Positions 1 through 15,405 of a DNA stretch of 64,000 nt are shown here, in pieces. Positions within the stretch are counted from its first letter, which is position 1; every line of letters starts with the position of its first letter. Under the pieces are notes generated by a model that was not told the DNA's origin, searched no databases, and saw only the letters and a program-made list of their open reading frames with translations. A program made the position numbers and the translations under genes. Location of the stretch: NCBI GenBank assembly GCA_964549615.1, contig CAZJVP010000099.1, forward strand, positions 1 through 64,000. Direction: 5' to 3'. Source of the stretch: an uncultured Thermococci archaeon (lineage in GTDB: Archaea; CAYQAE01; CAYVLA01).

Positions 1-690
1 TCCTCCGCAATCCTGCTCTGCGGACCACCTTCGGATGAGAGGAATCTCCTGTTGGACTCCTTCATCGGCACCGGTCTTGCCCGCGGTGATTCCTGCCTGT
101 ACGTTACCTCAGCCCAACCCCCCGACAACGTGAAGCACCAGTTTGGCGACTTGTCCAAGGACCTGACCATTGTGGACTGCTACACGAACAGGATCCGCGA
201 GGTCCCCGCCATCTCCGTGGAGGGAAACGTGATAACGACCCCGGTGGAGATCAGCGTGGTCGCGGTGGCCATCTCCAGGGTCCTAGACAGGCAAAGCGAG
301 AGGGCCAAGAGGGCGGTTTTGGACATCCTGCCGACTTACCTCGTCTTCCAGAAGATCGAAAAGATTTACCTCGACCTCATGGACATCATAGACGACCTGA
401 GGAAGGCCGGCTACACGGCCATATTCTCGCTCAACCCCTACTACATCAAGGACGAGGGCGCCGTCTCAACCCTTGAGGAGCTTTTCGACGGGGTGATTCA
501 CGTTGAGCGCGCTGCCGACGCCTCGGGAATGACCGGCGAGATCTCCATAAGGATCGAGAAGATGGGGAGGGAACCGGTGTCCAAGCCTGCTTTCAAGATA
601 AGGAAGCCGGGCCGCCATGAGTGGCATGGAGAGCGCCGGCCCGCGCCAACCCCAGGCTATGTTGGTGAGGCGCCCGCCGTTGAGGCCTAA
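1..690 (+). CDS. RAD55/KaiC-like (RecA-fold) domain protein, probably ATPase-inactive; 5' truncated by the window
   Basis: Frame 1 is open from base 1 (SSAILLCGPPSDERNLLLDSF...). KaiC/RAD55 hallmarks: CLYVT, IVDCYT, RAVLD (Walker B region), LEELFDGVI, IRIEKM. The Walker A position reads GPPSDERN instead of GxxGxGKT. Confidence 0.8.
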   Translation, partial: SSAILLCGPPSDERNLLLDSFIGTGLARGDSCLYVTSAQPPDNVKHQFGDLSKDLTIVDCYTNRIREVPAISVEGNVITTPVEISVVAVAISRVLDRQSERAKRAVLDILPTYLVFQKIEKIYLDLMDIIDDLRKAGYTAIFSLNPYYIKDEGAVSTLEELFDGVIHVERAADASGMTGEISIRIEKMGREPVSKPAFKIRKPGRHEWHGERRPAPTPGYVGEAPAVEA

Positions 691-1152: not shown

Positions 1153-1962
1153 TCAGGATGAGCTGGAGTAGATCTTCATATTCCTGTGGTTCCCGACCGA
1201 CCTGGATAGGTTCTCCATCACGGAAACCTTGACAGTAGGATCGCCAAAGACCAGGGTATAGAGGTGGCGCTGGTCGGCGCCCTCCCTGTAGATGTAGCTG
1301 AACTTGGGGTATGCATCCTTGTTGGACTTGAGCGCCCGCTCCACGATCTCGCGGGGTTTGCCGCGGATCTCGACGTTGATGCACTCCCCCTCGTCCGCGA
1401 AGATCTTCTGTATGATCTCCTCCCTGACCTTGTAGATGTTGGTCCTGCCCCGATTCCCGATCACCTGCAGGGCATTGTACCGGTTGTTGAGTATGGAGAG
1501 GATGTGCCTTTCGGATTCGGGCACGCAGCTCGACTCGAACGGCGCGCCCCCGTGGTCGAGCGTCAGCTTGCGCAGCACCTCGTTGTACTTGGTGCCCGAG
1601 CTCGGGACGCGAACCTGGTCCTTGGACCTTGCCGAGGCGGGCTTCAGGCATTCCATGATCTGTTCGGTGATACCGACAAGGCTGGAGATCTTGCTCTCGA
1701 TCCTTTCAACCCTTTCCTCCAGCTGCCTGCTCCTCGCCTCAAGGAGATTCGGAACCTTTCTTGAGAGGTCGCCCGCGTCCTTGCTGCCGAGCTTCACGAC
1801 GTCACCCTGCAGCTGCGGCAGGCTCTGCAATAGCTGCATCAGGGTTGCATCGTCAAGGGACGGGAAACTCATCTTGACCGTTCCGTCCCGTTTCATCTCC
1901 ACCTCAAGCTTTACCGACGTATCTAACCGTTGGCCCACGACATCCTGACCCATCCAACCCAC
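1153..1962 (-). CDS. coiled-coil + winged-helix + ferredoxin-like domain protein, paralogue A
   Basis: QLEERVERIESKISSL coiled coil, then PSSGTKY...FES..VP..ERHILSILNNRY..L.V...RGRTNIY shared with three neighbours. Confidence 0.8.
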   Translation of the reverse strand: MGWMGQDVVGQRLDTSVKLEVEMKRDGTVKMSFPSLDDATLMQLLQSLPQLQGDVVKLGSKDAGDLSRKVPNLLEARSRQLEERVERIESKISSLVGITEQIMECLKPASARSKDQVRVPSSGTKYNEVLRKLTLDHGGAPFESSCVPESERHILSILNNRYNALQVIGNRGRTNIYKVREEIIQKIFADEGECINVEIRGKPREIVERALKSNKDAYPKFSYIYREGADQRHLYTLVFGDPTVKVSVMENLSRSVGNHRNMKIYSSSS

Positions 1963-2048
1963 CTTTCCCTCGTCGGACCCCTATTCCCCGAGCGTCCACG
2001 AAAGGTCAGATCGTTTTGAAACTGTGGGGTCGTTTGAGTCATTCCGAT

Positions 2049-2180
2049 CCTTAAATCTCTTACGCAACGGCCCCCCGACCCCGAGCTGCTTCGCTTCTAG
2101 AAGAAACGCCGGTGCGAGCCTCGTTTCGGTCTTGAGAATAGTGCGAAATGCCGTGCCTGCTGTGGCAATGTTTTTAATAA
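2049..2180. promoter_or_regulatory. divergent promoter region (ATTTAAGG on - at 2049-2056; TTTTTAATAA on + at 2171-2180)
   Basis: Two AT-rich boxes between divergent genes starting at 1962(-) and 2221(+). Confidence 0.5.
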
Positions 2181-2220
2181 TGCCGGAATCAAAAAGGCGT
2201 CCCAGCCACGGTGATCTGCA

Positions 2221-2430
2221 ATGAATTCCGGACAAAGCCTTGAAGAGGCCTTGGACGAGCTGGAGAGAAGGCTGGACCTCCTTGACCAGAAGGTCAACCT
2301 CGCCATCGAGCAGAGCCTCTCTCTGCTCCAATACGTCAGGGATCATCGCCCCTTGCCGGCCAACGGAAGAGCGATCACCCGCCGCATCATCCTTGAGGAG
2401 ACTTCGCTTATCCCAGAAAGCGAGGCCTAA
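2221..2430 (+). CDS. 69-aa coiled-coil-only protein related to the paralogue coiled coil
   Basis: ATG ~40 nt after a TATA-like box. ELERRLDLLDQKVNLAIEQSLSLLQYVR aligns in register with the coiled coils of paralogues A-D. Confidence 0.7.
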   Translation: MNSGQSLEEALDELERRLDLLDQKVNLAIEQSLSLLQYVRDHRPLPANGRAITRRIILEETSLIPESEA

Positions 2431-2750
2431 TCGGGCGAGGTCCAAACGTTGCGCTAGCGGGTTCCAAACCGCAGGCGATCTGCCCCGGCAGCCCGGATGG
2501 GAATCGATTCGGTCCTAAACCCGTAAGGGCCTCGGGAAAGGGAAGCTAGGGACTCGTTCGCAGCCTTTTCTTTGGTCCCAGGTCTTCCCGAGGGCTTGAT
2601 CGGCCCCTCGTTTGACCTTAACGAATCGTCCACCGATGGTCGCGTCTCCACCGCATCCCACGCGTTTCGGCATCTTTTGCAGGCGAGGGCCTCACGTTAA
2701 TAAGCGACCTCGATTTCCTTGTTGCGGAACAATTCCCGGACTGATGCCTC

Positions 2751-3161
2751 ATGCCGAGGGAAACGGAGGGCCTTGCACCGACGCCCGCGGATCCTACGCT
2801 CGCGCACATGGAGAGGCTGGGAACGAGGCTCGGCCAGCTTGAGGAGGCAGTTGACCGTCTCATAGAGACCCACCAGATCTTGATGGGCAGCCTGGCGGCC
2901 AGGAAGGCGGCTAGGAAAAGGAAGGAGATGCCGAGCCCCAACACGAAGTACTTCGACTTCCTCGTGTACCTTGACCAGAACTTCGGCGACTCCGAGTTCA
3001 CCAGCGACGAGATCCCCCGCAAGAGCCGCCACATACTCTCGATCCTGAACACGGAGTACTCGTCTCTCGAGGTCGTTTCCAAGCGGGGGCGGACCAACGT
3101 CTACAGGATCTCGCCAAACATCCGCAAGAAGCTTGCCGGCAAGACTGTCGTCCAGCAGTGA
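2751..3161 (+). CDS. coiled-coil + winged-helix protein, paralogue B (short form)
   Basis: RLGQLEEAVDRL; PSPNTKY...FTSDEIP..SRHILSILNTEY..LEV..KRGRTNVY. TTAATAAG box at 2697-2704. Confidence 0.8.
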   Translation: MPRETEGLAPTPADPTLAHMERLGTRLGQLEEAVDRLIETHQILMGSLAARKAARKRKEMPSPNTKYFDFLVYLDQNFGDSEFTSDEIPRKSRHILSILNTEYSSLEVVSKRGRTNVYRISPNIRKKLAGKTVVQQ

Positions 3162-3360
3162 ATGCCAGCTCGCGGCGCTCGGCGCCCGCGTGGTCTCCCG
3201 GCATGGCAATGCAATGGACTGATCGTCCCGCCATCTCCTGAGCCCTTTCCCCGGCCCGCAATCCGGCGCAGGATGAAGCCAAGTGCGTTCAGACCGTTTC
3301 CCGCGGTTTCGGGCCCATCGGAAACCAAGGCTTGTCTGGACGGTTCGCTCGGCTACGAGA

Positions 3361-3368
3361 TTTATAAG
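3361..3368 (+). promoter_or_regulatory. TATA box (TTTATAAG) for paralogue C
   Basis: Consensus-like archaeal TATA box ~40 nt before the ATG at 3407. Confidence 0.6.
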
Positions 3369-3406
3369 AGGCTAGGCCAAAGCCGGATCCCACGGCGTTG
3401 CAAGGC

Positions 3407-4063
3407 ATGATAGAGATCGTTCGCGAGCCAAATGGTCCCGTCACGATCCGCATCTCAGAGGAGAGCATCGAGGACGTCAAGGAGATCCTGGGTTCGCTCT
3501 TTCGGGAGACGAACTTCGTTCAGAACCGCATCCAGGCCCTATCCTCCCGATTCGAGGATCTGGAAGCCTCCATTTCGCAACTAATCGCGATAAACAAGGA
3601 GCTCGCGGAGGCCTTGGAGCAGCGCCGAGAGGCAAAGAAGACGCACCTGCCAGCCCGCGGAACCAAGTACTACCGCAGGCTGTGGGACCTTTGCGCCCGA
3701 CATCTGGACGGCGACTTCACGAGCGACGATGTGCCGCCCAAGGAGAGGCACATCCTTTCCATACTGAAGAACGAGTACGACGTCTTGGAGGTTGCGGAGA
3801 GGAAGGGCAGGAGGAACTTCTACAGGATAAAGCCCGAGGTAGCGAGGCAGCTCTTGAAGGACCGGGGCCACGTCTTCTCCATCCCCGTCGACGCGCGAAA
3901 CCGGGAGAACATGGAATCGCTCATATCGGCCGAGGCCGAGAAGACCCGCTTCCTGTACGACGTCCGCGAGGCCGAGTCGGGCCTCGTCTACGAGTTCTTC
4001 TTTCCCGAGTCAAAGGCCGGCCAGGCCTTCGAACAGAGGCTGACCGCAGCAGCAAGGGCTTAG
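3407..4063 (+). CDS. coiled-coil + winged-helix + ferredoxin-like domain protein, paralogue C
   Basis: SSRFEDLEASISQL; PARGTKY...FTSDDVP..ERHILSILKNEY..LEV..RKGRRNFY. ATG 3407 preferred over TTG 3398. Confidence 0.8.
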   Translation: MIEIVREPNGPVTIRISEESIEDVKEILGSLFRETNFVQNRIQALSSRFEDLEASISQLIAINKELAEALEQRREAKKTHLPARGTKYYRRLWDLCARHLDGDFTSDDVPPKERHILSILKNEYDVLEVAERKGRRNFYRIKPEVARQLLKDRGHVFSIPVDARNRENMESLISAEAEKTRFLYDVREAESGLVYEFFFPESKAGQAFEQRLTAAARA

Positions 4064-4254
4064 GGGAGTCGTTCTCCTAGGTCGGTGCTCCGGCCGGCCC
4101 AGCCCCTAGGCTCGCCGGCATGGAGACAGCGAGGAGGCGCTGCTTGGCCGCCTCTGGAAGAAGAACGACCCAAAAAGGTTGGGGTGCTCGACCCCAGCCA
4201 CCAACTTGGCTGCCGCCGTAGCCGTTTGCGCCGGCAACGCTCGTCTTGAGGATC

Positions 4255-5103
4255 TCACGCCTCGCGAACGATCAGGTTGGTCTTGTTGCCGACGAACCTG
4301 CCGAGGTTGCTCGTGACGGAGAGCTGGACCGCGCTGTCCTTGAAGAACAGCCTGTACTTCTGCCTCATCCCGTTCCCTTCCAGGAAAGCATAGGTGAAGC
4401 CAGGGTACCTCTTCTGGTTCGTCTCAAGGAATGCATCGCAGCTCTTTCGGTCCTTGCCCTTGATCTCCACGATGTTGGACGTGCCCTCATTTGAAAGTAT
4501 CCTTTGCATGATCTCCTTTCGGATCTGGTAGATGTTCGTCCGGCCCCGGGTCTCGACGACCTCAAGGGCGTTGTACTTGTTGTTGAGGATCGAAAGAACG
4601 TGGCGCTTCTCGTCGCTCACCTGGTTTCCCTCGAAGGTCTTCGAGCCGAAGCGCTGCACGAGCTCCTGGAGCACCTCGTGGTACTTGGTCCCGGCGCTGG
4701 GGATCCTAGGCTCTCGGCTCTTCTTCTCAGGGTTCAGCGACTCTATGAGCTGCTTGTTCATGTCGATCAGGCTGGCGATCTTGCCCTCCAAGGCCTCTAT
4801 CCTGCCCTCGATGGCCTCCCGCCGCTTCTCGACCTCCGCGCCCTGGGGGACAGGTTTCTCGACCTCGGGCGTCGCCTCCTGCCCAGCCGGCTTGGCCGGC
4901 GGTGCCTCGCCCTCTATCCCGAAGGACTTCACCTCGATGGCACCGCGTTCCTCAGGCCGCGCGCCCCCACCCTGCCATCCCGCGGATATGCCCTTGATGA
5001 AGTCCATCAGCTGCTTCACATCGCTGACGGGCAGTTTGAGATGGATGGTGCCGACGTTCCTCAGCTCGATCTCGACGCTCCCGATCCTCGTTGCGTGTTC
5101 CAT
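4255..5103 (-). CDS. coiled-coil + winged-helix + ferredoxin-like domain protein, paralogue D
   Basis: GGGAGG RBS before ATG 5103 and TTTATTAA box at 5153-5160. EGRIEALEGKIASL; PSAGTKY...KRHVLSILNNKY..LEV..TRGRTNIY. Closest to paralogue A over its full length. Confidence 0.82.
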   Translation of the reverse strand: MEHATRIGSVEIELRNVGTIHLKLPVSDVKQLMDFIKGISAGWQGGGARPEERGAIEVKSFGIEGEAPPAKPAGQEATPEVEKPVPQGAEVEKRREAIEGRIEALEGKIASLIDMNKQLIESLNPEKKSREPRIPSAGTKYHEVLQELVQRFGSKTFEGNQVSDEKRHVLSILNNKYNALEVVETRGRTNIYQIRKEIMQRILSNEGTSNIVEIKGKDRKSCDAFLETNQKRYPGFTYAFLEGNGMRQKYRLFFKDSAVQLSVTSNLGRFVGNKTNLIVREA

Positions 5104-5556
5104 GGAAGGCCTCCCGAAAGGTTTTGATATGCCAATCAAGAATATCCTAACATTAATAAAGGTTTCGCAGCGTCGGCCGGCCGCGCCAGCCCCGCCCAAT
5201 GCGAACATCACATCCACGGCGTGGCCATTCCACCGTGGAGAGCGGTTGCAGTGCTGTTGACCGGCGATCTCCGAGCACCTCGATGTGGATACCGCAGTCT
5301 ACGCGACCAGGAATGCATTTTCCGTCATAGCCGGCGGGATTCTCGCGATCGGCACAATAGGATATCATTGCGCTGCGTCGTTCAAGGGCTTACCCGATTC
5401 AAGGAATCCGGCCCCGCTCGCATGATCCGGCCTGAACAAGCGCCCGACGACAGACTCCCTATGCTTTGATCGTAGCTGATACACCCCAAACGCATGGATT
5501 GGATCGAGCCACCAGCCTTTATATTCGGGGTGCTCGAGAGTTGCAAGAGAGCAGCC

Positions 5557-6654
5557 TTGACGGTCTCGGTTTCGGTGCCAGGCAGGATAAACATACTGGG
5601 GAATCCGACCGACGGGCTCGAGGGCGACTTCTGCACCATATCCTGCGCGATATCGCTACGAACCTACGGGGTCTTCGAGGAGAGCCAAGACTTCACCGTC
5701 GACGTCCGCACCTTGGAGGGAGCGGGGAGCTATCAGACCGTGCTCAAGAACGAGTACAAGTACAACGGCAAGTACGACATCGTGAAGGCGGCCATAAGGC
5801 GCTTGCAGAAGGAGTCCCCGGAGTTCGCGGATCGATTCGAGAAGACGAAGTTCCGCCTGACGACCTGGACCGACATCCCCCCAAGGAGCGGCCTTGGGGG
5901 ATCCTCGGCCGTCATAAACATGATCCTACTGGGGTGCAGGGAGCTCTACGGGCTCGATCACAGGCGGCTGAACGACTACAGGCTGGCTGAGATATGCACT
6001 CGCGTGGAGTGCGAGGAGCTCGGTTTCACCTGCGGCTATGCGGACAGGTACAGCACGCTCCTTGGCGGGCTAGCCTACATCGACTACAGGGGGAAGCTCC
6101 ATCACAGGCCGATAGATGAGGAGCCGTACGCAACCTACGAACGCCTCGACCACTACGTCCCCGAGATGCCGATGTTCGTCATATACACGGGCATCACCCG
6201 GGACTCGGGCAACGTCCATAGCGTCCTGCGGTCAAGGTACCTAAAGGAGCTTGCGGGCGAAGTGGAGGGCGAGAGATTTGCGCTCGAGGGAATGCAACGC
6301 ATCGCTGAGACCGCCATCCAAGGAAAGAAGCGGCTTCTTGAAGGGGACTGGGCCGCGTTGGGCTCGCTGATGAACGAGAATCACCGCTGGATAGATCTGG
6401 TGATGAAAAAATGCGGCTTCCAGGACGGCGCGGGGGCCGTCAACAACCTGCTCATCAAGGATGCCCTGGCTCACGGCGCTCTGGGCGCGAAGCTGACGGG
6501 AGCGGGGGGAGGAGGCTGCATCTGCATACTCGCGAGGGAGGGGGAGAAAGAGGAGCTCATGACCGCCATGAACGCCGCCATCGCGGGCCGCGGGCTCCAA
6601 GCGGCGAGGATATACGACTTCCAGATCTCGAAGGCCGGCTACGTCGTCAGGTAG
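5557..6654 (+). CDS. GHMP kinase, glucuronokinase-like
   Basis: PGRINILGNPTD, PPRSGLGGSSA, GYADR, DSGNVHS, GAKLTGAGGGG. TTG 5557 is the likely start (ORF opens at 5494). Confidence 0.8.
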   Translation: MTVSVSVPGRINILGNPTDGLEGDFCTISCAISLRTYGVFEESQDFTVDVRTLEGAGSYQTVLKNEYKYNGKYDIVKAAIRRLQKESPEFADRFEKTKFRLTTWTDIPPRSGLGGSSAVINMILLGCRELYGLDHRRLNDYRLAEICTRVECEELGFTCGYADRYSTLLGGLAYIDYRGKLHHRPIDEEPYATYERLDHYVPEMPMFVIYTGITRDSGNVHSVLRSRYLKELAGEVEGERFALEGMQRIAETAIQGKKRLLEGDWAALGSLMNENHRWIDLVMKKCGFQDGAGAVNNLLIKDALAHGALGAKLTGAGGGGCICILAREGEKEELMTAMNAAIAGRGLQAARIYDFQISKAGYVVR

Positions 6655-6662
6655 TGGCCTCT

Positions 6663-7562
6663 CTATCTCCTGCGCAGGAGCTTCTCGAGATCCTGCCTGA
6701 AGGCGGTACCTATCTCGGGGTCGGCCAGACACATGTCGACGAAGGCCGTCGCGTAGGTCCTGAGATCGCCTATGTCGTGCCTCTTTTCGCGCTCGTTCAG
6801 CTTGAAGGCCCAGACCGGCTTGCCCTCGGCAAGAAGGATGCGAATGGCGTCGGTGAGCTGTCTCTCGCCGCCGTAGCCCAGTGGCGTCCTACGAATGGCA
6901 TCGAAGATGTCGGGCTCGAAGACGTATCTGGCGGCAATCGCGAGGTTGCTCGGCGCCTCCTTCGGGCTGGGCTTCTCGACAAGATCCTCCAGCCTCATCG
7001 ACAACCCGTCGATCATCCTTGGCTTGACCACCCCGAACCGTCCGAGCCTCTCTGGTTCCACTTCCTCGACGGCGACCGTGGCCGTCGCGCCGGACCTTAC
7101 ATGCGAGTCTATGAGCTTCCACAGGAAGCTTCCGCCCTCGTAGCTCTGGATGATGGTGTCCCCCAGGCTCACCGCAAAGGGTTCTCCGCCGACGAAGCTC
7201 TCTCCCAGAAGGACTGCGTCGGCAAGTCCGGTGGGCTCCGACTGGCGGGTGTAGAATATCCGGGCGTTCAGCCTGTCCAGGAAGTCTATCTCGCGCAGCA
7301 ATGCGCTGTTGCCCTTCTCCTTGAGCATCTGCTGTAGCTGGTGATCGCGGTCGAAGTGGTCCTCTATGCTCCTCTTCCTGGCTCCGGTTATGACCAGTAT
7401 CTCGGTGATGCCGGCCCCCACAGCCTCCTCCACAACGTGCTGGATCACCGGCTTCCTGCCCACCGGGACCATCTCCTTGGGCTGGGACTTGGTAGCCGGA
7501 AGCAGCCTGGTCCCCAGGCCGGCGGCCGGGATTATGCACTTGGTGATCTTCTTCATGTGCAT
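6663..7562 (-). CDS. galU: UTP-glucose-1-phosphate uridylyltransferase-like NDP-sugar pyrophosphorylase
   Basis: IIPAAGLGTRLLPATKSQPKEM, RSIEDHFD, RQ..P.GLADAV, LVEKP, ERQLTDAI. Confidence 0.85.
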   Translation of the reverse strand: MHMKKITKCIIPAAGLGTRLLPATKSQPKEMVPVGRKPVIQHVVEEAVGAGITEILVITGARKRSIEDHFDRDHQLQQMLKEKGNSALLREIDFLDRLNARIFYTRQSEPTGLADAVLLGESFVGGEPFAVSLGDTIIQSYEGGSFLWKLIDSHVRSGATATVAVEEVEPERLGRFGVVKPRMIDGLSMRLEDLVEKPSPKEAPSNLAIAARYVFEPDIFDAIRRTPLGYGGERQLTDAIRILLAEGKPVWAFKLNEREKRHDIGDLRTYATAFVDMCLADPEIGTAFRQDLEKLLRRR

Positions 7563-7640
7563 CCGTCCGAACTGGTGTCCCCCGGCCTTAAGAAAGGCAA
7601 CCGATGGTTGAACGTGAACCCTTAGACACCTTCAGAAGCT

Positions 7641-8642
7641 TCACCCTATGGACGTTACCATGGAGTCAAACTTGCCCCGAAGGGCCTCGGCAAGGCCCAT
7701 GACGGATTGTGGATCCCTGCAAAGTACGACTATGGAGCCGTTTCCCCCGGCGCCGGTCCACTTGGCCCCAAGGGCCCCGTTCTCGCGCACCGCCTCAAGG
7801 GCCGCGTAGAGGCGTGGGCTATCCAGCTCCTCCGGACAGAAGGGCCTCAAGCCCTTGTCGTAGCAGGCCTGGTTCTGGTTCATCAGCTCGCCGATCCTTT
7901 CCAGCCTGCATCTTCCCTCCATCTCGGCCCTCGCACGCCGAACCAGGTCCGGGATGTCCCGACCCAGGGTTCTCACTATGAGCGGGTCCTTCTTTACGAA
8001 GTAGTAGTGGTTAAGGGTGTTGAGTATGAGCTTGGTATCCCGGACGCCTCCCACGTCCACGATTACGAGGGGAAGCCTGCGCTTGAGCAGGACCCTTTCA
8101 TACCTGAACCCTCGCTGGAAGTCTATGTAGAGCGGCTGCTCGTGGGCTGCCGCAGTTTGATCCATCATGCCACATCCTATTCCAAGGAGCCCGTTCTCGG
8201 CCCTGTAGGATATGCGCACGATGTCGTCTGCCGAAAGCCCCAGGGAGTAGAGCTCGTCGAAAGCCTTGGCCGTGGAGACGCACAGGGCGGCGGAGGAGGA
8301 AAGCCCCTTCTTCATGGGGACGTCGGAGCTTATCTTCAGGTCCGTTCCGCCCAGCTTGAGCCCCCTTTCAAGCATCGCCGCCACGACCGCGTTGACGTAC
8401 TTTAGCGAGCTCTCCCTGATGGGAAGCTCGAGGGCCCTTCGCAGTTCGAAGCTTGCATGGTCATCGGCATTGCTGACCGAATTTGAGATCGCGATGCGAA
8501 TCTCGCCCGACCCCGTTCTCCAAGCCTGCGTCACGATCCTCCTGTCGATGGAGGATGCCAGCACCTGGCGCCGCGCCCAGTCGCAGTGATCCCCCAGCAG
8601 GCATACCCTGCCGAACCCGACCCCTGTAGCGGAATCAGGCAA
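7641..8642 (-). CDS. GHMP sugar kinase (galactokinase-related)
   Basis: GRVCLLGDHCDW, PMKKGLSSSAA, CGMMDQ, GAKWTGAGGNG. Confidence 0.85.
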   Translation of the reverse strand: MPDSATGVGFGRVCLLGDHCDWARRQVLASSIDRRIVTQAWRTGSGEIRIAISNSVSNADDHASFELRRALELPIRESSLKYVNAVVAAMLERGLKLGGTDLKISSDVPMKKGLSSSAALCVSTAKAFDELYSLGLSADDIVRISYRAENGLLGIGCGMMDQTAAAHEQPLYIDFQRGFRYERVLLKRRLPLVIVDVGGVRDTKLILNTLNHYYFVKKDPLIVRTLGRDIPDLVRRARAEMEGRCRLERIGELMNQNQACYDKGLRPFCPEELDSPRLYAALEAVRENGALGAKWTGAGGNGSIVVLCRDPQSVMGLAEALRGKFDSMVTSIG

Positions 8643-9774
8643 CCTTGCGCCCCCTGGACACCAAGCCTCGGCTTGCCAGCTCCTCTGAGGCTTGGTTGAA
8701 TCGATCCGCTGACTTCTGGGTCATCGCCCATTCGAGGAACTCTTTCATCCCTTCCCTGAACCCAACGCTGGGCCGGTACCCATGCCGCTCGATCTTGGCG
8801 ATGTCGGCGTAGCAGTGCCTTATGTCGCCGGAGCGGTACTGCCCAGGGACGTACGGCTCCATGTCGGCAGCACAGATCTCGATCACGGCCTGGGCGACGC
8901 GCATCACCGAGGTCGGGACCCCTGTGCCCACGTTGAAGCAGTCACCCCCCATCGCCCTCTTCCTCATTGCCAGCACGTTGGCCTGAACGACGTCCCTCAC
9001 GTTGACGAAGTCGCGCGTCTGTTCCCCGTCCTCATATACGACGGGTGGCTGGCCGGCCCTCACCCTCGAGTGGAAGATGGCCGCGACGCCCGTGTACGGA
9101 TTGGTCAGCGACTGTCCGGGCCCGTAAACGCAGAAGTACCTCAAGACCGTTGTGGAAATGCCGTACGCCCTGCCGATCTGAAGGGACATCTCCTCCTGGT
9201 CCCGCTTGGTGGTCGCGTAGATCGACGTCGGGCGGAGCGGTTTCTCCTCGTTCGTTGGCACGGCCGAGACGGCACCCAGCCCGCAAACCGGGCATAGGGG
9301 CTCCCACACGCCCTTCCGGAGAAGATCCTCGGATCTCAATCCGGGGTAGACAACCCCGCAGCGCTCGCATTCGTAGGCGCCCTCGCCGTAGACGGTATTG
9401 GAGGACGCGACTATCAGTTTGTCCACATCGTGCTCCTTGTTCGCCAAGTGGTCGAGCAAATTGGCAGTTCCCAGCGTGTTCACATGCACGTATCTGGAGA
9501 TCTGGTACATGCTCTGGCCTATCCCGACCGCTGCGGCCTCGTGAAAAACGACCCGGACGTCCTCAAGCGCGCGCTCCCAAGCGCTAGGATCCCTCACGTC
9601 CCCCTGGACGAACTCGACGCCGCATGGGGGCTCCCTCTGGGCGCCGGAATGAACCTGGGAATCGAGATTATCCATGACGCGCACGGGGTATCCGATACCC
9701 ACGAGCCTCCTTGACAGATGGGAGCCTATGAATCCCATGCCCCCGGTGACGAGAACCAGCCCTTTTTCCTTCAT
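8635..9774 (-). CDS. extended SDR nucleotide-sugar epimerase/dehydratase with CxxC-CxxC insertion (WbiB-like)
   Basis: TGGMGFIGS, HEAA.VG, YATTK (YxxxK), NPYTGV, EDGEQTRDFV; CERC...CPVC insert. Confidence 0.88.
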   Translation of the reverse strand: MKEKGLVLVTGGMGFIGSHLSRRLVGIGYPVRVMDNLDSQVHSGAQREPPCGVEFVQGDVRDPSAWERALEDVRVVFHEAAAVGIGQSMYQISRYVHVNTLGTANLLDHLANKEHDVDKLIVASSNTVYGEGAYECERCGVVYPGLRSEDLLRKGVWEPLCPVCGLGAVSAVPTNEEKPLRPTSIYATTKRDQEEMSLQIGRAYGISTTVLRYFCVYGPGQSLTNPYTGVAAIFHSRVRAGQPPVVYEDGEQTRDFVNVRDVVQANVLAMRKRAMGGDCFNVGTGVPTSVMRVAQAVIEICAADMEPYVPGQYRSGDIRHCYADIAKIERHGYRPSVGFREGMKEFLEWAMTQKSADRFNQASEELASRGLVSRGRKVA

Positions 9775-9883
9775 TTGGACTGCAATGAGGGTCCGTGCTG
9801 AAAAATCGCTGTCCGCCGAGGAGCGCAGCAGCGCGGACTTCGAATAGCAACCCTAGCCTGAGGCGACGGGGCGTCGGCCGTTC

Positions 9884-10783
9884 CTAGGTCCTAGGACGCG
9901 TGAGCCTGTAGGCCCGACCTACGCCGGGTTGACCTGAACCGAAGAGCTGCAATGCGAACCATGTCCATGCCATGACCATGAATGGAAGGGAGGGGAAGGT
10001 GATTGACCGATCGTGATGGAAAGTATAGTGGAAGTCCGTGGCGGAAATCGCCTCGGTGAGAAGTCCCCTGCCAAGCCTCGGCACCGGTTGGACCAGGATG
10101 ACTAGGGAGAGAGCTACGAAGGATGTCCGCCAGAGATCGCCTCTTTGGGCCAGGAGCCCAAGAAACGAACCCAGCCCGATGACGAACGCGAAGGTCAGGT
10201 AGGGCTCTAATGAAAGGGCTAGGTCCCTCGGTATCGACCCCATGTACACCGGGCCGTGTGCGATGCTTTCGCCCCTCCAGTACCCGGACCCGGACAGCGT
10301 CTTGTAACCCGCCAAGGCCAGAAGGCTGAACACGATCGCCGCTGGGAGGAGCATGCAGATCAGGGAAGCGATCGCGCGACGATCTCTCACGCGGCGCGTA
10401 ACGATCATCATGCTGCACGCTGCGGAAGATGCCAACAACGCATAGATGAACAACCTTTCGACGTAGCTTTCAACGAAGAGGGCAGCCGGCACGTTCAAAA
10501 GTCGTCCCACCGGCCTGACCACGGCAACCCATAACCGGATGGCGTGGTTGGCCACCATCAACGCACAAGAGCACCCAACCAAGCCATAGCCAATGAGGCC
10601 GAACCGACCCCGGGGACCGCTGGATCTCCACAGCTCGAAAAGGCAGAAACTCTGGATCCCGATGAGGAGAGTCCAGACGGAAAGGTGGACGAGCGCTTGG
10701 GTAGGCGGATAGTCGATCATGTTGACGGTTGCAAATCCGAGCACGCCCAAGAGGTCATCAGCGTAGCAGTCGGCGATCGCCAC
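9884..10783 (-). CDS. multi-pass membrane protein of unknown function (true start probably upstream, ~10850)
   Basis: Several hydrophobic segments. The frame continues upstream as AFSTLTLALILLG with no ATG/GTG/TTG, abutting the stop of galU copy 2. Confidence 0.6.
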   Translation of the reverse strand: MAIADCYADDLLGVLGFATVNMIDYPPTQALVHLSVWTLLIGIQSFCLFELWRSSGPRGRFGLIGYGLVGCSCALMVANHAIRLWVAVVRPVGRLLNVPAALFVESYVERLFIYALLASSAACSMMIVTRRVRDRRAIASLICMLLPAAIVFSLLALAGYKTLSGSGYWRGESIAHGPVYMGSIPRDLALSLEPYLTFAFVIGLGSFLGLLAQRGDLWRTSFVALSLVILVQPVPRLGRGLLTEAISATDFHYTFHHDRSITFPSLPFMVMAWTWFALQLFGSGQPGVGRAYRLTRPRT

Positions 10784-10848
10784 CCCCAGCAGGATGAGCG
10801 CAAGCGTTAGCGTGGAGAATGCGGGCCGAGCTGCCGGCGGAGAGCGCT

Positions 10849-11739
10849 CTACTTCGATGACCGCATCATCTTCCGGATGTCTTCCTTCAACTTGGGGCCT
10901 AATTCCGGATCCCTCAAGCAGAGGTCGATGAAGGCAAGCGCGTACGAGTACGGCGTCCCGATGTCGTGAACGATGTTGCCCTCGTCAAGAACAAGGCCAT
11001 AGACCTCCTTTCCCTCACTCAAAAGAACGCCTATCGCGTCCGTAAGTTGCCTTTCCCCGCCCACCCCGATGGGGGTCTTCTTGATTGCATCCAAGATGCT
11101 TGCGTCAAACACGTACCTACCGGCGAGCGCAAGGTTGCTGGGGGCCTTCTCCACGGGTGGCTTCTCCACAACTCCGGTTATCCTCACCAACTCGCCGGAG
11201 TCCTCAACCTTTGCGACCCCGTAGCGAATCGAATCCTCCGGGCTTATCTTCTTCAAAGCGACGACCGCTGCGCAATTTTTTGACTCGTAGATGCTCATCA
11301 GGGATGAAAGGAAGTGTCCGCTGCGCCGGTTGACCACGATGTTGTCGCCCAAACAGACGACGAACGGCTTGCCGTCGACGAAAACCTCGGCGAGCGAGAC
11401 CGCATCGGCAATGCCGGTTGGGCAGCTCTGCCTCGTGAAAAGAAGCTGTATGCCCTGTCTTGCAAACAGCTTGATTCCAGCGGACTGCGCGCTGATCCCG
11501 CGCTTCGCCAGCTGGTCCCACAGAATCTGGTCGTAGTCGAAGTGGTCCTCGATGCTCCTTTTCCTTGCCCCCGTCACTATGAGGATCTCTTTCAGGCCCG
11601 CCTCGACGGCTTCCTCGACCACGTACTGTATCACAGGCTTGCGGCCAATCGGCAGCATCTCCTTCGGCTGGGATTTGGTCGCGGGCAAGAGCCTCATCCC
11701 GAAGCCCGCTGCCGGTATGACGCACTTCCTGATCCTCAT
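10849..11739 (-). CDS. galU: UTP-glucose-1-phosphate uridylyltransferase-like protein, paralogue 2
   Basis: MRIRKCVIPAAGFGMRLLPATKSQPKEM, VVEKP, ERQLTDAI; clear paralogue of 6663..7562. Confidence 0.85.
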   Translation of the reverse strand: MRIRKCVIPAAGFGMRLLPATKSQPKEMLPIGRKPVIQYVVEEAVEAGLKEILIVTGARKRSIEDHFDYDQILWDQLAKRGISAQSAGIKLFARQGIQLLFTRQSCPTGIADAVSLAEVFVDGKPFVVCLGDNIVVNRRSGHFLSSLMSIYESKNCAAVVALKKISPEDSIRYGVAKVEDSGELVRITGVVEKPPVEKAPSNLALAGRYVFDASILDAIKKTPIGVGGERQLTDAIGVLLSEGKEVYGLVLDEGNIVHDIGTPYSYALAFIDLCLRDPELGPKLKEDIRKMMRSSK

Positions 11740-11948
11740 TGACCCAGCCTGTGGTGGACCCGCCTTTAAGCTGAACATGCCCAGGGTCTAAACATCAGGA
11801 AGAGGGAATGGAAAGGTTTCTATACCAAGTCAAATCGCCTGGGAATCCAGCATATCAGGGAACGGGTCTCTCTTGAACACCAAGGCGGGGCACTCTTCGC
11901 CCGAATGTAATATGAGGAGCAGGCCCTAGAGTGGAGATCTGATCCGGA

Positions 11949-13274
11949 TTGGCAGTATCGATCTTGGGACTCGGTTACGTAGGGATGACCCTTTCGTTGA
12001 AGCTCGCCGAGGCAGGCCAAGACGTCTTCGGCGTTGACTGCAACGAGAGCATCGTCCGGACCCTAATGCAAGGGAGGGTGCATCTTTCCGAGCCGGGCCT
12101 GCAGGAGCTCCTCGGGAAGCACCTCGGCAAGAGATTCTTCCCGTCAACCCGTCTCCCGCCGCACCATCATGGCTCAAGTTACGTGATCTGCGTGAACACC
12201 CCCGTTGATTCGGTGGGGAGGATCGACCTCTCGCCCCTGACGGCCGCGGCCTCTGACGTTGGGCGGTCGCTTCGTGAGGGCGACCTCGTTGCAGTCAGGT
12301 CCACGGTTCCCCCCGGGACAACGAGGAGGATGGTGGTACCGACGCTTGAATCCTGCTCGGGGCTTCAGGCAGGGCGGGACTTTGGCGTCTGCGTTGCACC
12401 GGAGCGGACGGTCGAGGGGAAAGCTTTAGCTGAGCTCGGGCGACTGCCTCAGATCATAGGGGGATTCGACGCCTCTTCCGCTGAGGCTGGCCAGGCACTT
12501 TTCCGGTCCGTCACGCCCGATACAAGGGTGGTGTCAAGCATGGAGGCCGCGGAGATGGTCAAGCTGCTGGACAACTGCTACAGGTATGCCGTCTTCGCCA
12601 TAGGCAACGAGTTCGGCCTGGCCTGCGAGGCCCTTGGCCTTGACGCGGCAGAGGTGATTGAAGCGGCAAACTGGCACTATCCGCGCAATGACATAAAGAT
12701 GCCCGGCGCAGGCGTCGGAGGCGGATGTCTCCCTAAGGATGCCAGGATGATGATAGACGCCATGAAGCGCTCCGGGGTGTCGCCGACCCTCTTGCGAGCG
12801 GCGAGGAAGGTGAACGAGGGCATGCCGCGCCGCATATTCGAGATCGTCGACGGCTTCCATGCCGCCAACCGGATACCTAAGAATCGGTCCAAGATACTGA
12901 TCCTAGGCTTCGCATTCAAAGGGAAACCGCAAGTCAACGATACGAGGCACTCTCCGGGCGGTTACCTCTCGCGCCTCTTGCGCAAAAGCGGGTACAACGT
13001 TTGCGGCTACGACCCGGCCGTCAGCGAGGACCAGATCAGGTCCTTCGGGGCGGAGCCATGCGAAGTGCAGGAGGGATTTATGCAGGCCACGGCAGCTGTG
13101 GCCATGAACGACAATCCGACGTTCGCAGACCTTGACCTCGCAAAGCTGTCAAGGAGGATGTCAAGCCCATGCCTGATCGTCGATGGCTGGAGGATACTGG
13201 ACGATTCCCGGCTTGGGGCGCGCGAGGGCGTCATCTTTCGGAGGCTCGGCAACGGTAGAACTCGGGGTCCCTGA
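11949..13274 (+). CDS. wecC: nucleotide-sugar 6-dehydrogenase (UDP-ManNAc dehydrogenase-like)
   Basis: GLGYVG, CVNTP, RSTVPPGTT, PERTVEGKAL, GVGGGCLPKD, GFAFKG.P..ND.R.SP. Confidence 0.8.
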   Translation: MAVSILGLGYVGMTLSLKLAEAGQDVFGVDCNESIVRTLMQGRVHLSEPGLQELLGKHLGKRFFPSTRLPPHHHGSSYVICVNTPVDSVGRIDLSPLTAAASDVGRSLREGDLVAVRSTVPPGTTRRMVVPTLESCSGLQAGRDFGVCVAPERTVEGKALAELGRLPQIIGGFDASSAEAGQALFRSVTPDTRVVSSMEAAEMVKLLDNCYRYAVFAIGNEFGLACEALGLDAAEVIEAANWHYPRNDIKMPGAGVGGGCLPKDARMMIDAMKRSGVSPTLLRAARKVNEGMPRRIFEIVDGFHAANRIPKNRSKILILGFAFKGKPQVNDTRHSPGGYLSRLLRKSGYNVCGYDPAVSEDQIRSFGAEPCEVQEGFMQATAAVAMNDNPTFADLDLAKLSRRMSSPCLIVDGWRILDDSRLGAREGVIFRRLGNGRTRGP

Positions 13275-13285
13275 GGTAGTCGACC

Positions 13286-14455
13286 TTGAGGATAGGTTTT
13301 GTGTCGCCCTACTACTACCCCGCGATGATCGGCGGAATCGAGTGGTACCTGTATCACGTTTCGAGGCTTTTGGCCCGCAAGGGGCATGAGGTGGAGGTCT
13401 TCACAACCAACGCTGGCGCGACGCGCAAAGACCTTCCGGCAGAGGAAGATTCTGAGGGCGTCCGGATCCACAGGTTCAGGCCCGCGCTGGACGTCACCTA
13501 CCGCATCAAGCTCTGGCCCTCCCTGATCCCGCGGCTGAGGTCAAACGACCTCCAGGTCGTGCATGCTTTTGACTACGCGCAGTTCCACGACCTTGCAGTC
13601 GCCCTGGCCCGCGCCTCATCCGGGTGGCGTTCAGTGGTGACGGTATATGACGTGCACTCCCAGATCCCCAGGGCGCCGGCCAAGTCGGCGGCCCTACGGG
13701 TTTTCGATCACTACCTGGCAGGCGCGATCCTTCGCGCGTTTGACAAGGTTCTCGTCAGGACTCCGTATCAAGCGGAGTTCGCCAGGGGACTGGGGATAGG
13801 CGAGGAAAGGCTTGAGCTTGCGCCACCCGGCATCGACGATGAGAGCTTCGAAGAAGTTGAGGCGAAGAAGATCCAAGAGGTCAGGGCCAGGTACGCTTGC
13901 GACGGATCGCACATGATCCTCTACGTAGGCAGGATACACCCCATCAAGGGAATAGACGTTCTGATACGGGCGCTGGCGTGGCTCAAGGGAAGGGGACTTC
14001 GCGCCAGGCTGATCGTGGTCGGACCGGACCAATCCGGCTACACCCCGACCCTACAGCGCCTGGCCTCGACGCTGGACGTTGCAGGGATGGTGATCTTCAC
14101 TGGCTATCTGGAGGAGGATGAGAAGAGAAGGCTTCAGGCGGCCTCGGACGTCGCGGTTCTCCCCAGCAGCTTTGAAGGCTTCGGCCAAGCCTTGATACAG
14201 GCCATGGCACATGGGACCCCCGTGATCGGCACCAATGTGGGTGGGATACCCTGGGTGCTGGAGCAGGGAAACGCGGGTCTTCTCGTTCCCTACGGCGACC
14301 ATGTATCGCTGGCGAAGAGCATTGAGCGGATCGTGTCTGACGACGACCTGAGAAGGAGCCTTGTCCAGAGAGGCAGAGAGAGGGCCCGCCAGTTCTCCTA
14401 CCCGGCTCTCGTTGAGAACCTCGAAGCGATCTATCGACGACTCTGCGCGACGTGA
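13286..14455 (+). CDS. GT4 family glycosyltransferase
   Basis: YYP..GGIE, YVGRI.P.KG, PS.FEGFG..L.QAMA.GTPVI. Confidence 0.9.
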   Translation: MRIGFVSPYYYPAMIGGIEWYLYHVSRLLARKGHEVEVFTTNAGATRKDLPAEEDSEGVRIHRFRPALDVTYRIKLWPSLIPRLRSNDLQVVHAFDYAQFHDLAVALARASSGWRSVVTVYDVHSQIPRAPAKSAALRVFDHYLAGAILRAFDKVLVRTPYQAEFARGLGIGEERLELAPPGIDDESFEEVEAKKIQEVRARYACDGSHMILYVGRIHPIKGIDVLIRALAWLKGRGLRARLIVVGPDQSGYTPTLQRLASTLDVAGMVIFTGYLEEDEKRRLQAASDVAVLPSSFEGFGQALIQAMAHGTPVIGTNVGGIPWVLEQGNAGLLVPYGDHVSLAKSIERIVSDDDLRRSLVQRGRERARQFSYPALVENLEAIYRRLCAT

Positions 14456-14526
14456 CGGAACCCGGTTCCCTATATCCTGGACGGCAAAGGGAGATAGGAT
14501 GCCGAACGGACGGTTCCGCAAGCAGC

Positions 14527-15405
14527 CTACCGGATTTCCAGCCCGAGCATCTGCCGCGTCTCAACGGGGCAGGCAACATCCCGGCCAAGTTCCCCGGCCA
14601 ATTTCGCCGCCCTCCGGACCAGCTGGGGATTCGTGGCGAGGATTTTCTTCCCGTGGTCGAAGTAGATGTTGTCCTCAAGACCGACCCGGACGCCCGCGCC
14701 GATGGCTATCGCAACCGCCGTCATCGTCAGCTGGAACCGGCCCACGCCGCCGACCGACCAGATCGCGTTGTCCGGAAGACATCCAGACATATGAGAAAGG
14801 CTCGATATGTTCGCCCGGGCCGACCCCAGAGAGCCCAGTATCAGGTTGAAGTAAGGCCTGTCATCGTTCGAGAGGATGCCCTTTCTCATTAGGTAGACGC
14901 CGTAGTTTATCATGCCCGCCTCGAAAACCTCCAGCTCGGGCTTGATCCCCCTCTGTCTCATCAGGCTGGCCAGATGGACCACGGTCTCAGGCGGGTTTGC
15001 GCTGATGGTGTCAGGGAAGTTGAAGGATCCGAGGGTGAGGCTTGCCATGTCAGGCCGCTCCTCCCCCTGCAGGGAAAGGACCTCTGACCGCAGCTCAGGC
15101 TTGTTGTGCACCCTGCCGCTCGTGCTGGCGCAGATCACCAGATGCGGGTCCTTATCCCTGATCCTTCCTATGATTTCGGCGTAGATTTCCTTGCGGTAGG
15201 TCGGCTTTCCGTCCTCGTCCCTGGCATGGACGTGAACGATCGATGCGCCTTCCCGCGCGCAGGCCAGCGCATCATCGGCTATCTCCTGCGGCGTAATCGG
15301 CACGTTAGGGTTGTCGGATTTCGTCGGGACGACCCCGGTGAGCGCGACGTTGATGATGAGCTTCGGGAAGGGCCTGATCGGGTGGTCTTGAAGCCGGTCC
15401 TCCAT
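14527..15405 (-). CDS. kce: beta-keto acid cleavage enzyme (BKACE/DUF849, 3-keto-5-aminohexanoate cleavage family)
   Basis: NVALTG, NP.VPITP.EI, GASIVHVHARD (HxH), DMASL.LGSFNF, PELEVF, RVGLEDN. Family is clear; substrate is not. Confidence 0.85.
   Translation of the reverse strand: MEDRLQDHPIRPFPKLIINVALTGVVPTKSDNPNVPITPQEIADDALACAREGASIVHVHARDEDGKPTYRKEIYAEIIGRIRDKDPHLVICASTSGRVHNKPELRSEVLSLQGEERPDMASLTLGSFNFPDTISANPPETVVHLASLMRQRGIKPELEVFEAGMINYGVYLMRKGILSNDDRPYFNLILGSLGSARANISSLSHMSGCLPDNAIWSVGGVGRFQLTMTAVAIAIGAGVRVGLEDNIYFDHGKKILATNPQLVRRAAKLAGELGRDVACPVETRQMLGLEIR

What the first reader, a model, noticed from the sequence alone, without database searches (positions are those of the whole stretch)
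1153..5103. Cluster of four paralogous coiled-coil / winged-helix proteins of an unrecognised family: candidate combinatorial regulator or chromatin system
Seen: four genes within 4 kb, in mixed orientation, share the block P.x.[GN]TKY...L......F.[SG]..[VI]...RH[IV]LSIL..[REK]Y..L.V...[RK]GR.N.Y. All four have a coiled coil just before it in the same register (RVERIE, RLGQLE, RFEDLE, RIEALE). A, C and D add an N-terminal beta-hairpin plus helix and a C-terminal beta-alpha-beta-beta-alpha domain; B has only coil and wH. Established: R-h-x-x-h-E is a known trimerisation motif of short coiled coils, and this helix-helix-beta-hairpin pattern with a GR wing fits DNA-binding winged helices. Inference: near-identical putative recognition helices on interchangeable coils suggest mixed homo/heterotrimers reading one DNA motif, with variable sensory C-domains. 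This resembles HSF-style logic and matches no archaeal regulator I recognise. A nucleoid or segregation role is an alternative.
Basis: partly seen in the sequence, partly recalled or inferred. Interest (0 to 1): 0.9.

Follow-up and report, generated by a model that had tools for sequence, protein, structure and literature searches.

The report
Orphan archaeal coiled-coil winged-helix gene cluster
A small hot-spring archaeal lineage carries a conserved cluster of related genes for proteins that join a short coiled coil to a probable DNA-binding winged-helix domain; they match no described family, so they are probably new regulators, but their function is untested.

Summary
Four paralogs lie at window 1153-5103: A, 1153-1953/1962 (-); B, 2751-3161 (+); C, 3407-4063 (+); D, 4255-5103 (-). 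All share a four-heptad coil followed by a basic winged-helix (wH) domain. A, C and D add a small N-terminal domain and a C-terminal ferredoxin-like domain.

- a fifth, more divergent paralog (E) on another contig;
- a conserved 69-aa coil-only gene (S, 2221-2430 +) between A and B.

No Pfam, NCBIfam, PHROG, PADLOC or PDB sequence match exists. An exhaustive profile search of 1.84 billion representative proteins found 19. Among 401 archaeal genomes, only the 4 of one family have it (a fifth, marginal match was spurious), each with the same five paralogs in the same order. AlphaFold2 models and Foldseek support the wH fold (ArsR/MarR/eS25/forkhead-like) and a PII/ACT/RAM-like C-domain, but only at fold level (no hit at E <= 0.001).

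The trimer and heterotrimer idea remains untested: the one complex prediction gave no verdict. No shared operator was found, and each gene has its own TATA-like promoter.

Best reading: a lineage-restricted family of oligomeric wH DNA-binding regulators or nucleoid-type proteins. Its parts recall Lrp/AsnC and Lrs14/Sso10a, but it belongs to neither. Interest is moderate.

The parts
1153..1962 (-). Paralog A (about 266 aa from the ATG at 1953): N-terminal hairpin+helix domain, linker, coil (RVERIE), winged helix, ferredoxin-like C-domain
   Evidence: ORF; translation; alignment; orthologs 60-79% identical in G001-G003; monophyletic group
2000..2024 (-). Non-coding block upstream of A, 19 of its 25 positions invariant in all four genomes (longest unbroken run 12). 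It lies about 25-50 nt downstream (in A's direction) of a TATA-like box at about 2049-2059. Candidate operator or 5'-leader element.
   Evidence: Intergenic alignment; upstream listing; sequence. Its function is inferred only.
2221..2430 (+).
   Evidence: tblastn finds it in all 3 sister genomes at the same place, 52-58% identity. It is open, 69-73 aa, with a GGTG(A)-type motif upstream; substitutions are biased to codon position 3 (35-41 vs 9-16 at position 2). 28 invariant columns. 19 clusters in the 5.8-billion protein set, none with a Pfam domain. Weak profile match to the family coil (hhalign prob 45%, 23 columns).
2751..3161 (+). Paralog B (136 aa): coil (residues 15-54, RLGQLE) + winged helix (about 61-120) + short C-terminal helix; the minimal member
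   Evidence: AF2 pLDDT 87.3; Foldseek wH hits; TATA-like TTAATAAG at about 2697-2704, conserved in 4 genomes
3407..4063 (+). Paralog C (about 218 aa; ORF opens at TTG 3398): N-hairpin+helix joined directly to the coil (RFEDLE), winged helix, shorter acidic C-domain (pI 5.1)
   Evidence: orthologs 55-69% identical; own TATA-like box GATTTATAAGA upstream
4255..5103 (-). Paralog D (282 aa): N-domain, disordered linker (residues 43-86), coil 87-123 (window 4735-4845, RIEALE), winged helix 135-206 (4486-4701), ferredoxin-like beta-alpha-beta-beta-alpha-beta 208-281 (4261-4482)
   Evidence: AF2 model; Foldseek; conserved promoter block with CTTTATTAA and TATCAAAAC upstream

Best explanation
The locus encodes a lineage-restricted protein family. 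Its core is a short (about four-heptad) coiled coil followed directly by a basic winged-helix domain.

Four paralogs (A, B, C, D) and a coil-only mini-protein (S) sit together, and a fifth paralog (E) lies elsewhere. All six are kept, one copy each, in every genome of the lineage searched.

Most likely mechanism (inferred, not shown):
- The coil brings two or more chains together, so that several wH domains are presented to DNA.
- The nearly invariant polar and basic residues contact nucleic acid. These are the N-terminal arm (P-S-x-G-T-K-Y), the third helix (R-H-I/V-L-S-I-L-N) and the wing (G-R-x-N-x-Y).
- The C-terminal ferredoxin-like domain of A, C, D and E adds ligand sensing and/or higher-order assembly, as RAM, ACT and PII domains do.
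- B (coil+wH only) and S (coil only) are truncated forms that could join or cap such assemblies.

The proteins would thus act as transcription regulators or Lrs14-like nucleoid-type DNA binders that share one DNA target or binding mode. Which genes they control is unknown.
For: Paralogy and anatomy:
- 24 invariant columns among A-D.
- The heptad pattern is conserved in 35 family members.
- AF2 of B has pLDDT 87.3 with H-S-H-H-S-S topology after a 40-residue helix. AF2 of D has pLDDT about 90 over coil, wH and C-domain.

Fold:
- Nearly all of the top Foldseek PDB hits of B listed are wH proteins: eS25, ArsR/SmtB family, Rot, FOXN1, TubR, NolR, HlyU (prob up to 0.97).
- The named hits in the viral library are mostly wHTH/HTH-type proteins.
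- Atlas structure rows name ArsR/PadR/HTH_5 clusters.
- C-domain hits are PII/SbtB/GlnK, ACT and RRM-like ferredoxin folds (prob up to 0.99). Two Lrp/AsnC regulators align over 158-173 columns.

Charge: all five wH domains are basic (pI 9.4-9.9, net +3 to +7).

Selection:
- The gene set and order are conserved in 4 of 4 genomes of the family.
- Each paralog group is monophyletic with one member per genome, so all copies have been kept since before these species split.

Transcription: each gene has its own conserved TATA-like box.
Against: - No DNA binding is shown.
- All Foldseek E-values are 0.009-0.3; none is <= 0.001, so only the fold is supported, not homology to any regulator family.
- No sequence family matches.
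- A 7-mer survey of 24 upstream regions found nothing shared by the six genes except TATA-like boxes and TCAAAAC, which is upstream of A and D only.
- wH domains can also bind RNA or proteins; the best PDB hit is ribosomal protein eS25.
- The N-terminal domain is poorly modelled.
- The oligomeric state is unknown.
- The genome already has two histones, so no chromatin gap needs filling.
Confidence: 0.55

Rival explanations
1. HSF-style combinatorial trimers. The R-h-x-x-h-E motif makes the coils trimeric and interchangeable, so A-D (and perhaps S, as an HSBP1-like coil-only modulator) form mixed trimers reading one DNA motif.
For: - The motif sits in the same columns in A-D and in 23 of 35 family members.
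- It is described as a trimerisation motif in a paper of which I saw passages only (PMC6173795).
- Recognition-helix residues are invariant in A-D.
- PII-like folds, the best C-domain hits, are trimers by my recollection (hits).
- S and C give weak, below-cut-off Pfam hits to HSBP1 (E 0.0065 and 0.019) and S to Trimer_CC (E 0.0034).
Against: - The motif is absent from all 4 E-type and all 7 distant short members, plus one B-type row (12 of 35 lack it).
- The conserved polar 'a' position is Asn in C and D, which by recollection favours parallel dimers.
- The abstract of PMC3653964 (search listing) indicates that such determinants do not always decide the oligomer state.
- The domain order is the reverse of HSF.
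- All coiled-coil Pfam hits are far below cut-off.
- Co-assembly was not demonstrated.
Confidence: 0.12
2. Nucleoid-associated, architectural proteins. These would be small to mid-size, basic, multi-paralog wH + coiled-coil proteins that bind DNA without sequence specificity and cooperatively, like Lrs14/Sul10a/Sul12a in Sulfolobales.
For: - Same ingredients (wHTH + coiled-coil oligomerisation, basic, several paralogs per genome, single-gene units) as described for Lrs14 in PMC11841832 (abstract and passages seen).
- B's helix order, H0-H1-S-H2-H3-S-S-H4, is the order given there for Lrs14.
- Own promoters.
- Invariant DNA-facing residues across paralogs A-D fit a common, non-specific binding mode.
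- pI 9.0-9.6 for A, B, D and E.
Against: - The genome has two histone genes.
- No expression data exist.
- C is acidic overall (pI 6.2).
- The ferredoxin-like domain suggests signal input.
- No Lrs14/Sso10a structure is named among the top Foldseek hits listed for B.
- The coil is N-terminal here, whereas in Lrs14-type proteins the coiled coil is the C-terminal helix.
Confidence: 0.2
3. Not DNA-binding. The wH serves protein or RNA binding, and the paralogs build a structural or scaffold complex. This might be linked to the neighbouring membrane KaiC-like ATPase or to the adjacent cell-surface glycan gene cluster.
For: - The best PDB hit of the wH is ribosomal protein eS25.
- wH domains in ESCRT-II, cullins and kleisin partners bind proteins (recalled).
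- The neighbours are conserved in the two sister contigs that extend beyond the cluster on the relevant side: TM+KaiC-like ATPase upstream in G001, sugar kinases and NDP-sugar enzymes downstream in G002.
- No operator was found.
Against: - Synteny among four close relatives is weak evidence of a functional link.
- The invariant residues are the classic nucleic-acid-contacting types on the third helix and wing.
- All wH domains are basic.
Confidence: 0.13

Closest known systems
Lrp/AsnC (FFRP) regulators: wHTH + RAM (beta-alpha-beta-beta-alpha-beta) domain
   Same: A wH domain followed directly by a ferredoxin-like beta-alpha-beta-beta-alpha-beta domain. Two Lrp/AsnC structures (2dbb_B, 2p5v_A) appear among the Foldseek hits of D over 158-173 columns. 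Archaeal genomes carry several paralogs (recalled).
   Different: No sequence match to HTH_AsnC or AsnC_trans_reg. PF01037 finds 4 other genes in this genome, not these. The rmsd is 11-13 A and E is 0.04-0.11. There is an extra N-terminal coil and N-domain. B lacks the C-domain.
Lrs14 / Sul10a (Sso10a) / Sul12a / TrmBL2-N type archaeal wHTH + coiled-coil DNA binders
   Same: Small basic wHTH proteins that oligomerise by a coiled coil, with several paralogs per genome and single-gene units (PMC11841832, passages). B has the same order of secondary-structure elements.
   Different: In those families the long coiled-coil helix is C-terminal (H4) and antiparallel; here the long helix is N-terminal. 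There is no sequence match. None of them is named among the top Foldseek hits listed for B. A, C, D and E carry two further domains.
Heat-shock factor (HSF) with HSBP1
   Same: A wH DNA-binding domain joined to a short oligomerisation coil; a coil-only small protein (S) next door recalls HSBP1. Weak sub-threshold HSBP1 hits.
   Different: Domain order is reversed (coil before wH). No HSF_DNA-bind match. Trimer state is untested. HSF is eukaryotic.
ArsR/SmtB and MarR/SarA wHTH repressors
   Same: The closest solved folds for the wH itself are 3f6v, 3gw2, SmtB, NolR, HlyU, BigR and Rot. Atlas structure rows name ArsR/PadR clusters.
   Different: E is 0.09-0.3 and identity 15-22%. No Pfam HTH_5/HTH_20/MarR hit. 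Their dimerisation is through flanking helices of the wH core (recalled), not a heptad coil.

Membership tests
Winged-helix (wH/wHTH) fold | H1-S1-H2-H3-S2-wing-S3 topology in a compact domain of about 70 residues | tested here: met
   AF2: B H66-78, E83-84, short H, H90-103, E106-112, E115-120, with pLDDT 91-95 over residues 61-130. D has the same elements at 140-194.
Winged-helix (wH/wHTH) fold | Significant structural similarity to solved wH proteins | tested here: inconclusive
   Nearly all top hits are wH proteins (prob up to 0.97, TM by target 0.34-0.57), but the best E is 0.042 and none is <= 0.001. The viral library is the same.
Winged-helix (wH/wHTH) fold | Sequence match to a curated wH/HTH family | tested here: not met
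   No HTH/wH model at E <= 1 in Pfam or NCBIfam, apart from a 13-bit CRP line far below cut-off. No PDB sequence hit at E <= 0.1.
Lrp/AsnC (FFRP) | C-terminal AsnC_trans_reg/RAM domain (PF01037) by sequence | tested here: not met
   No hit. The genome-wide PF01037 search hits 4 other loci only.
Lrp/AsnC (FFRP) | Architecture: wHTH followed by beta-alpha-beta-beta-alpha-beta | tested here: met
   D model E208-215, H219-232, E236-244, E247-254, H257-271, E277-281 directly after the wH.
Lrs14 / Sso10a type | Dimerisation by an antiparallel coiled coil of the C-terminal helix H4 | tested here: not met
   The long heptad helix is N-terminal (B 15-54; D 87-123). The helix after the wing is 14 residues in B. 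The definition comes from PMC11841832 passages.
HSF-like trimeric factor | Trimeric coiled coil | not testable with these tools
   The R-h-x-x-h-E motif is present in 23 of 35 members.
HSF-like trimeric factor | DNA-binding domain N-terminal to the oligomerisation coil; HSF_DNA-bind signature | tested here: not met
   The coil precedes the wH in all members. No Pfam hit.
PII / ACT small-ligand domains | Ferredoxin-like beta-alpha-beta-beta-alpha-beta fold | tested here: met
   Foldseek hits to SbtB, GlnK, ACT and threonine-deaminase regulatory domains: prob 0.9-0.99, rmsd 3.4-4.6 A over 76-90 columns, E 0.03-0.12.
PII / ACT small-ligand domains | Family sequence signature | tested here: not met
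   No P-II or ACT model at E <= 1.
SpoVT/AbrB swapped-hairpin (for the N-terminal domain) | Profile similarity to PF04014-type domains | tested here: not met
   PF04014 finds 18 places in this genome, none in these genes. hhalign of the N-domain (20 rows) against 11 of this genome's own AbrB domains: prob 0.3%.

The most novel reading that the evidence does not exclude
The six genes form one modular, hetero-oligomeric DNA-binding system. Full-length sensors (A, C, D, E) would exchange subunits through a common coil with a sensor-less form (B) and a coil-only cap (S). The mix of subunits, rather than separate recognition helices, would then set the output. This would be an archaeal counterpart of HSF/HSBP1 or bHLH/Id logic, invented independently in one hot-spring lineage.
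Probability: 0.1. Interest if true: 0.7.

Novelty: new variant of a known kind. Interest (0 to 1): 0.4.

Why it matters
If the reading is right, this adds an uncatalogued family to the archaeal repertoire of winged-helix DNA binders. It has a new domain order: hairpin domain, coil, wH, ferredoxin-like domain. It also has an unusual feature: five paralogs plus a coil-only mini-protein kept together since before the species split, with paralogs A-D sharing one near-invariant recognition surface. That makes the locus a compact natural test case for whether archaeal regulators use subunit mixing.

It also shows where automatic annotation is blind. None of the family's public homologs found here carries a Pfam domain, and the only names sources give them are 'hypothetical protein'. 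The family is confined to a very small lineage, so its general importance is limited unless the mechanism proves new.

Tried and rejected
- Curated libraries. Pfam, NCBIfam, PHROGs and PADLOC gave only sub-threshold coiled-coil noise for A-D. For S, Pfam alone was scanned, with the same result.
- PDB by sequence profile. Best E 0.11, irrelevant.
- ESM Atlas. B gave only leads under 0.9. D gave no usable hit and has no Atlas model.
- Complex prediction. A(68-192) + C(36-156) + D(85-207) with B as partner gave no verdict (score 0.26, mark 0.32). This is neither for nor against binding.
- Context of the distant short homologs (P0037-P0044). Two metagenome scans found no locus. Their hosts and neighbours therefore stay unknown.
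- Expression. No RNA holder was listed; read laying was not used.
- Shared operator. A 7-mer survey of 200-nt upstream regions of 6 genes in 4 genomes found only TATA-like boxes, plus TCAAAAC upstream of A and D. No proper motif finder was available.
- AbrB-like N-domain. Rejected.
- S as a true homolog of the family coil. Weak only (hhalign prob 45%).
- Marginal hit in G305. It lies in another frame of a membrane-protein gene and was rejected.
- Rfam. No RNA family in the window.
- Alba. Only below cut-off.
- Literature. Four searches found no description of this family. Supplementary files were not opened.
- The look-up of encoding contigs was not called because it is marked closed.

Full report
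**What is there**

Six-frame ORF listing and translation confirm four genes in mixed orientation inside window 1153-5103:
- A: 1153-1962, minus strand. Its likely start is the ATG at 1953.
- B: 2751-3161, plus strand, 136 aa.
- C: 3398/3407-4063, plus strand.
- D: 4255-5103, minus strand, 282 aa. The longer ORF up to 5217 is not used by public homologs, which are 255-305 aa.

A four-way alignment has 24 invariant columns, concentrated in P-x-x-x-T-K-Y, F, R-H-x-L-S-I-L, Y, L-x-V and G-R-x-N-x-Y. Paralog-to-paralog tblastn E-values of 1e-21 to 1e-53 exclude chance.

1. A fifth paralog, E, is 274 aa as translated from its GTG. It is more divergent, with RVFSLLVKRY in place of RHILSILNNKY. It lies on another contig of the same genome (G000:C20).
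2. A conserved small gene, S (2221-2430, plus strand, 69 aa), lies between A and B.
   - It is open and 69-73 aa long in all four genomes, and 52-58% identical.
   - It has a GGTG(A)-type motif before the start. Its substitutions are concentrated at codon position 3.
   - It has 19 clusters in the 5.8-billion-protein collection. Several have longest-contig lengths equal to those of D or B homologs.
   - S is essentially one amphipathic helix plus a conserved T-R-R-I-I-L-E-E-T tail.
   - Its helix aligns weakly with the start of the family coil (hhalign probability 45%, 23 columns).

**Anatomy**

AlphaFold2 was run with family alignments.
- B model (pLDDT 87.3): a 40-residue helix (15-54), then H66-78, a two-residue strand, a short helix, H90-103, a hairpin at E106-112/E115-120, and H122-135. 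This is the canonical winged-helix order.
- D model: the same wH at 140-194 after a helix at 87-123, then a beta-alpha-beta-beta-alpha-beta domain at 208-281. All these parts have pLDDT about 90. Residues 43-86 are disordered.
- The N-terminal 40 residues of D are poorly modelled (pLDDT 42-66), with only a helix called. So the N-terminal 'hairpin' rests on the conserved alternating pattern in the alignment of A, C and D, not on the model.

The coil has hydrophobic residues at 3-4-3-4 spacing over about four heptads in 35 aligned members. It has a conserved polar core position: His in B-type, Asn in C- and D-type, Thr in A-type. The R-h-x-x-h-E hexapeptide occurs in 23 of 35 members. It is missing from all 4 E-type and all 7 distant short members, plus one B-type row.

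All five wH domains are basic (pI 9.4-9.9).

**Fold comparisons**

- For B against the PDB, nearly all top hits are winged helices: ribosomal eS25, ArsR/SmtB-type repressors, Rot, FOXN1, TubR, NolR and HlyU. Probabilities reach 0.97, but E-values are 0.04-0.3 and none is <= 0.001.
- The viral library gives the same picture.
- The Atlas structure rows name ArsR/PadR clusters at TM 0.4-0.5.
- For D, the hits are to the C-domain: PII-like SbtB/GlnK, ACT-type regulatory domains and RRM-type ferredoxin folds (prob up to 0.99, E 0.03-0.12). Two Lrp/AsnC regulators align over 158-173 columns with high rmsd.

The folds are therefore supported; membership of any known family is not.

**Family size and distribution**

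- No curated library recognises the proteins, and PDB sequences do not either.
- An exhaustive profile search of 1.84 billion representative proteins found 19 at E <= 0.001. Among them are a few 113-131-aa proteins with only coil+wH that are 25-38% identical to B.
- A word-indexed search with that wider profile added only close B orthologs, none with a Pfam domain.
- In whole genomes, all 4 members of one taxonomic family, including this genome, have the family (five profile matches in each; six in G003, where A gave two), in the same order. The single other genome of the phylum held has none.
- Of 401 archaeal genomes sampled, only these 4 have it, plus one spurious out-of-frame match.
- Record titles of the three sister loci label them Candidatus Hadarchaeota. 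The coded run that holds the DNA is a hot-spring metagenome.
- A maximum-likelihood tree of the 20 proteins puts each of A, B, C, D and E in its own group with one member per genome. Support is 88-100% ultrafast bootstrap, lowest for D (88/93). A pairs with D; B pairs with C, though that join is flagged as a possible long-branch artefact.
- All duplications therefore predate the divergence of these species, and all copies have been retained.

**Surroundings**

- Upstream is the 3' part of a membrane-anchored KaiC-like ATPase (PF06745/DUF7504). The full 518-aa ortholog is in G001.
- Downstream begins a long sugar-nucleotide and glycosyltransferase cluster.
- This order is kept in the sister genomes as far as their short contigs allow.
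- The cluster lies close to a contig end in all four assemblies.
- Each of A, S, B, C, D and E has its own conserved TATA-like box, so they look like separate transcription units.
- Upstream of A, a 25-nt block (window 2000-2024) is conserved in all four genomes, with 19 of its 25 positions invariant (longest unbroken run 12). Upstream of D there is a conserved TATCAAA(A/G)C.
- No motif common to all promoters was found.
- No Rfam family matches the window.

**How it most likely works**

Shown: paralogy, conservation, predicted coil + wH + ferredoxin-like folds, and basic wH domains.

Inferred:
- The coil oligomerises the chains.
- The invariant arm, third helix and wing contact nucleic acid.
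- The C-domain senses a small ligand or drives higher-order assembly, as in Lrp/AsnC, ACT or PII proteins.
- B and S, lacking some or all of the other parts, could join or cap the assemblies.

Paralogs A-D are only 25-39% identical overall yet keep the same putative DNA-facing residues. This argues that they share one target or one binding mode, which fits either competing or mixing regulators or a nucleoid-type binder. I give about 0.55 to 'oligomeric DNA-binding regulator/architectural protein family'. Within that, the HSF-like heterotrimer version gets about 0.1.

**Comparison with known systems**

- Lrp/AsnC shares the wH + beta-alpha-beta-beta-alpha-beta order but no sequence signature.
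- Lrs14/Sul10a/Sul12a share wHTH + coiled coil, basic character and multiple paralogs. Their coil is the C-terminal helix and antiparallel (PMC11841832, abstract and passages).
- HSF has the reverse domain order.
- An AbrB-like reading of the N-domain was tested and rejected.

The locus is thus a new sequence family and a new arrangement of known modules: a new variant of a known kind.

**Limits**

- There is no experimental or expression evidence. No RNA run was listed.
- The one complex prediction gave no verdict.
- The hosts and context of the distant short homologs could not be retrieved.
- The statements that Asn at a core 'a' position favours dimers, that PII proteins are trimers, and that some wH domains bind proteins come from my recollection, not from any call.

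Noticed in passing
window 2221-2430 (+): Conserved, unannotated-looking 69-aa coil-only gene (S) between A and B. It is present in all four genomes and in 19 metagenomic clusters. It is treated as part of the system in this report.
   Followed up: yes
window 2000-2024 and 2049-2059: A 25-nt non-coding block upstream of gene A, conserved in four genomes whose A proteins are only 60-79% identical (19 of its 25 positions are invariant), lying downstream of a TATA-like box. It could be an operator or a leader RNA element; no Rfam match.
   Followed up: partly
window 1-690 (+); L015 483-2039: The contig starts inside a gene for a membrane-anchored KaiC-like ATPase (PF06745/DUF7504; 518 aa in the sister genome). 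The paralog cluster lies near a contig end in all four assemblies, which suggests that something nearby assembles poorly.
   Followed up: partly
window 5494-25000: Large sugar-activation and glycosyltransferase cluster: two GHMP kinases, two NDP-sugar pyrophosphorylases, an epimerase, UDP-glucose dehydrogenase, and GT1, GT2 and GT4 enzymes. It is probably for cell-surface glycan synthesis.
   Followed up: partly
window 17219-22800: Four consecutive ORFs (817, 327, 347 and 409 aa) without any Pfam hit at E <= 1e-5, inside the glycan cluster.
   Followed up: no
window 26000-36000; ORF 34954-40059 (-): This stretch has lower G+C (0.53-0.55 against about 0.60) and adjoins a 1701-aa ORF. It may be a foreign island or a surface-protein gene; not examined.
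   Followed up: no
L005 2-949 (-) and 1947-2861 (-) (G000:C20): The fifth paralog E is flanked by an ORF with a Walker-A-like GPRGCGKT motif on one side and an unexamined 304-aa ORF on the other. Neither neighbour was run against a family library, and whether this neighbourhood is conserved in the sister genomes was not checked.
   Followed up: no
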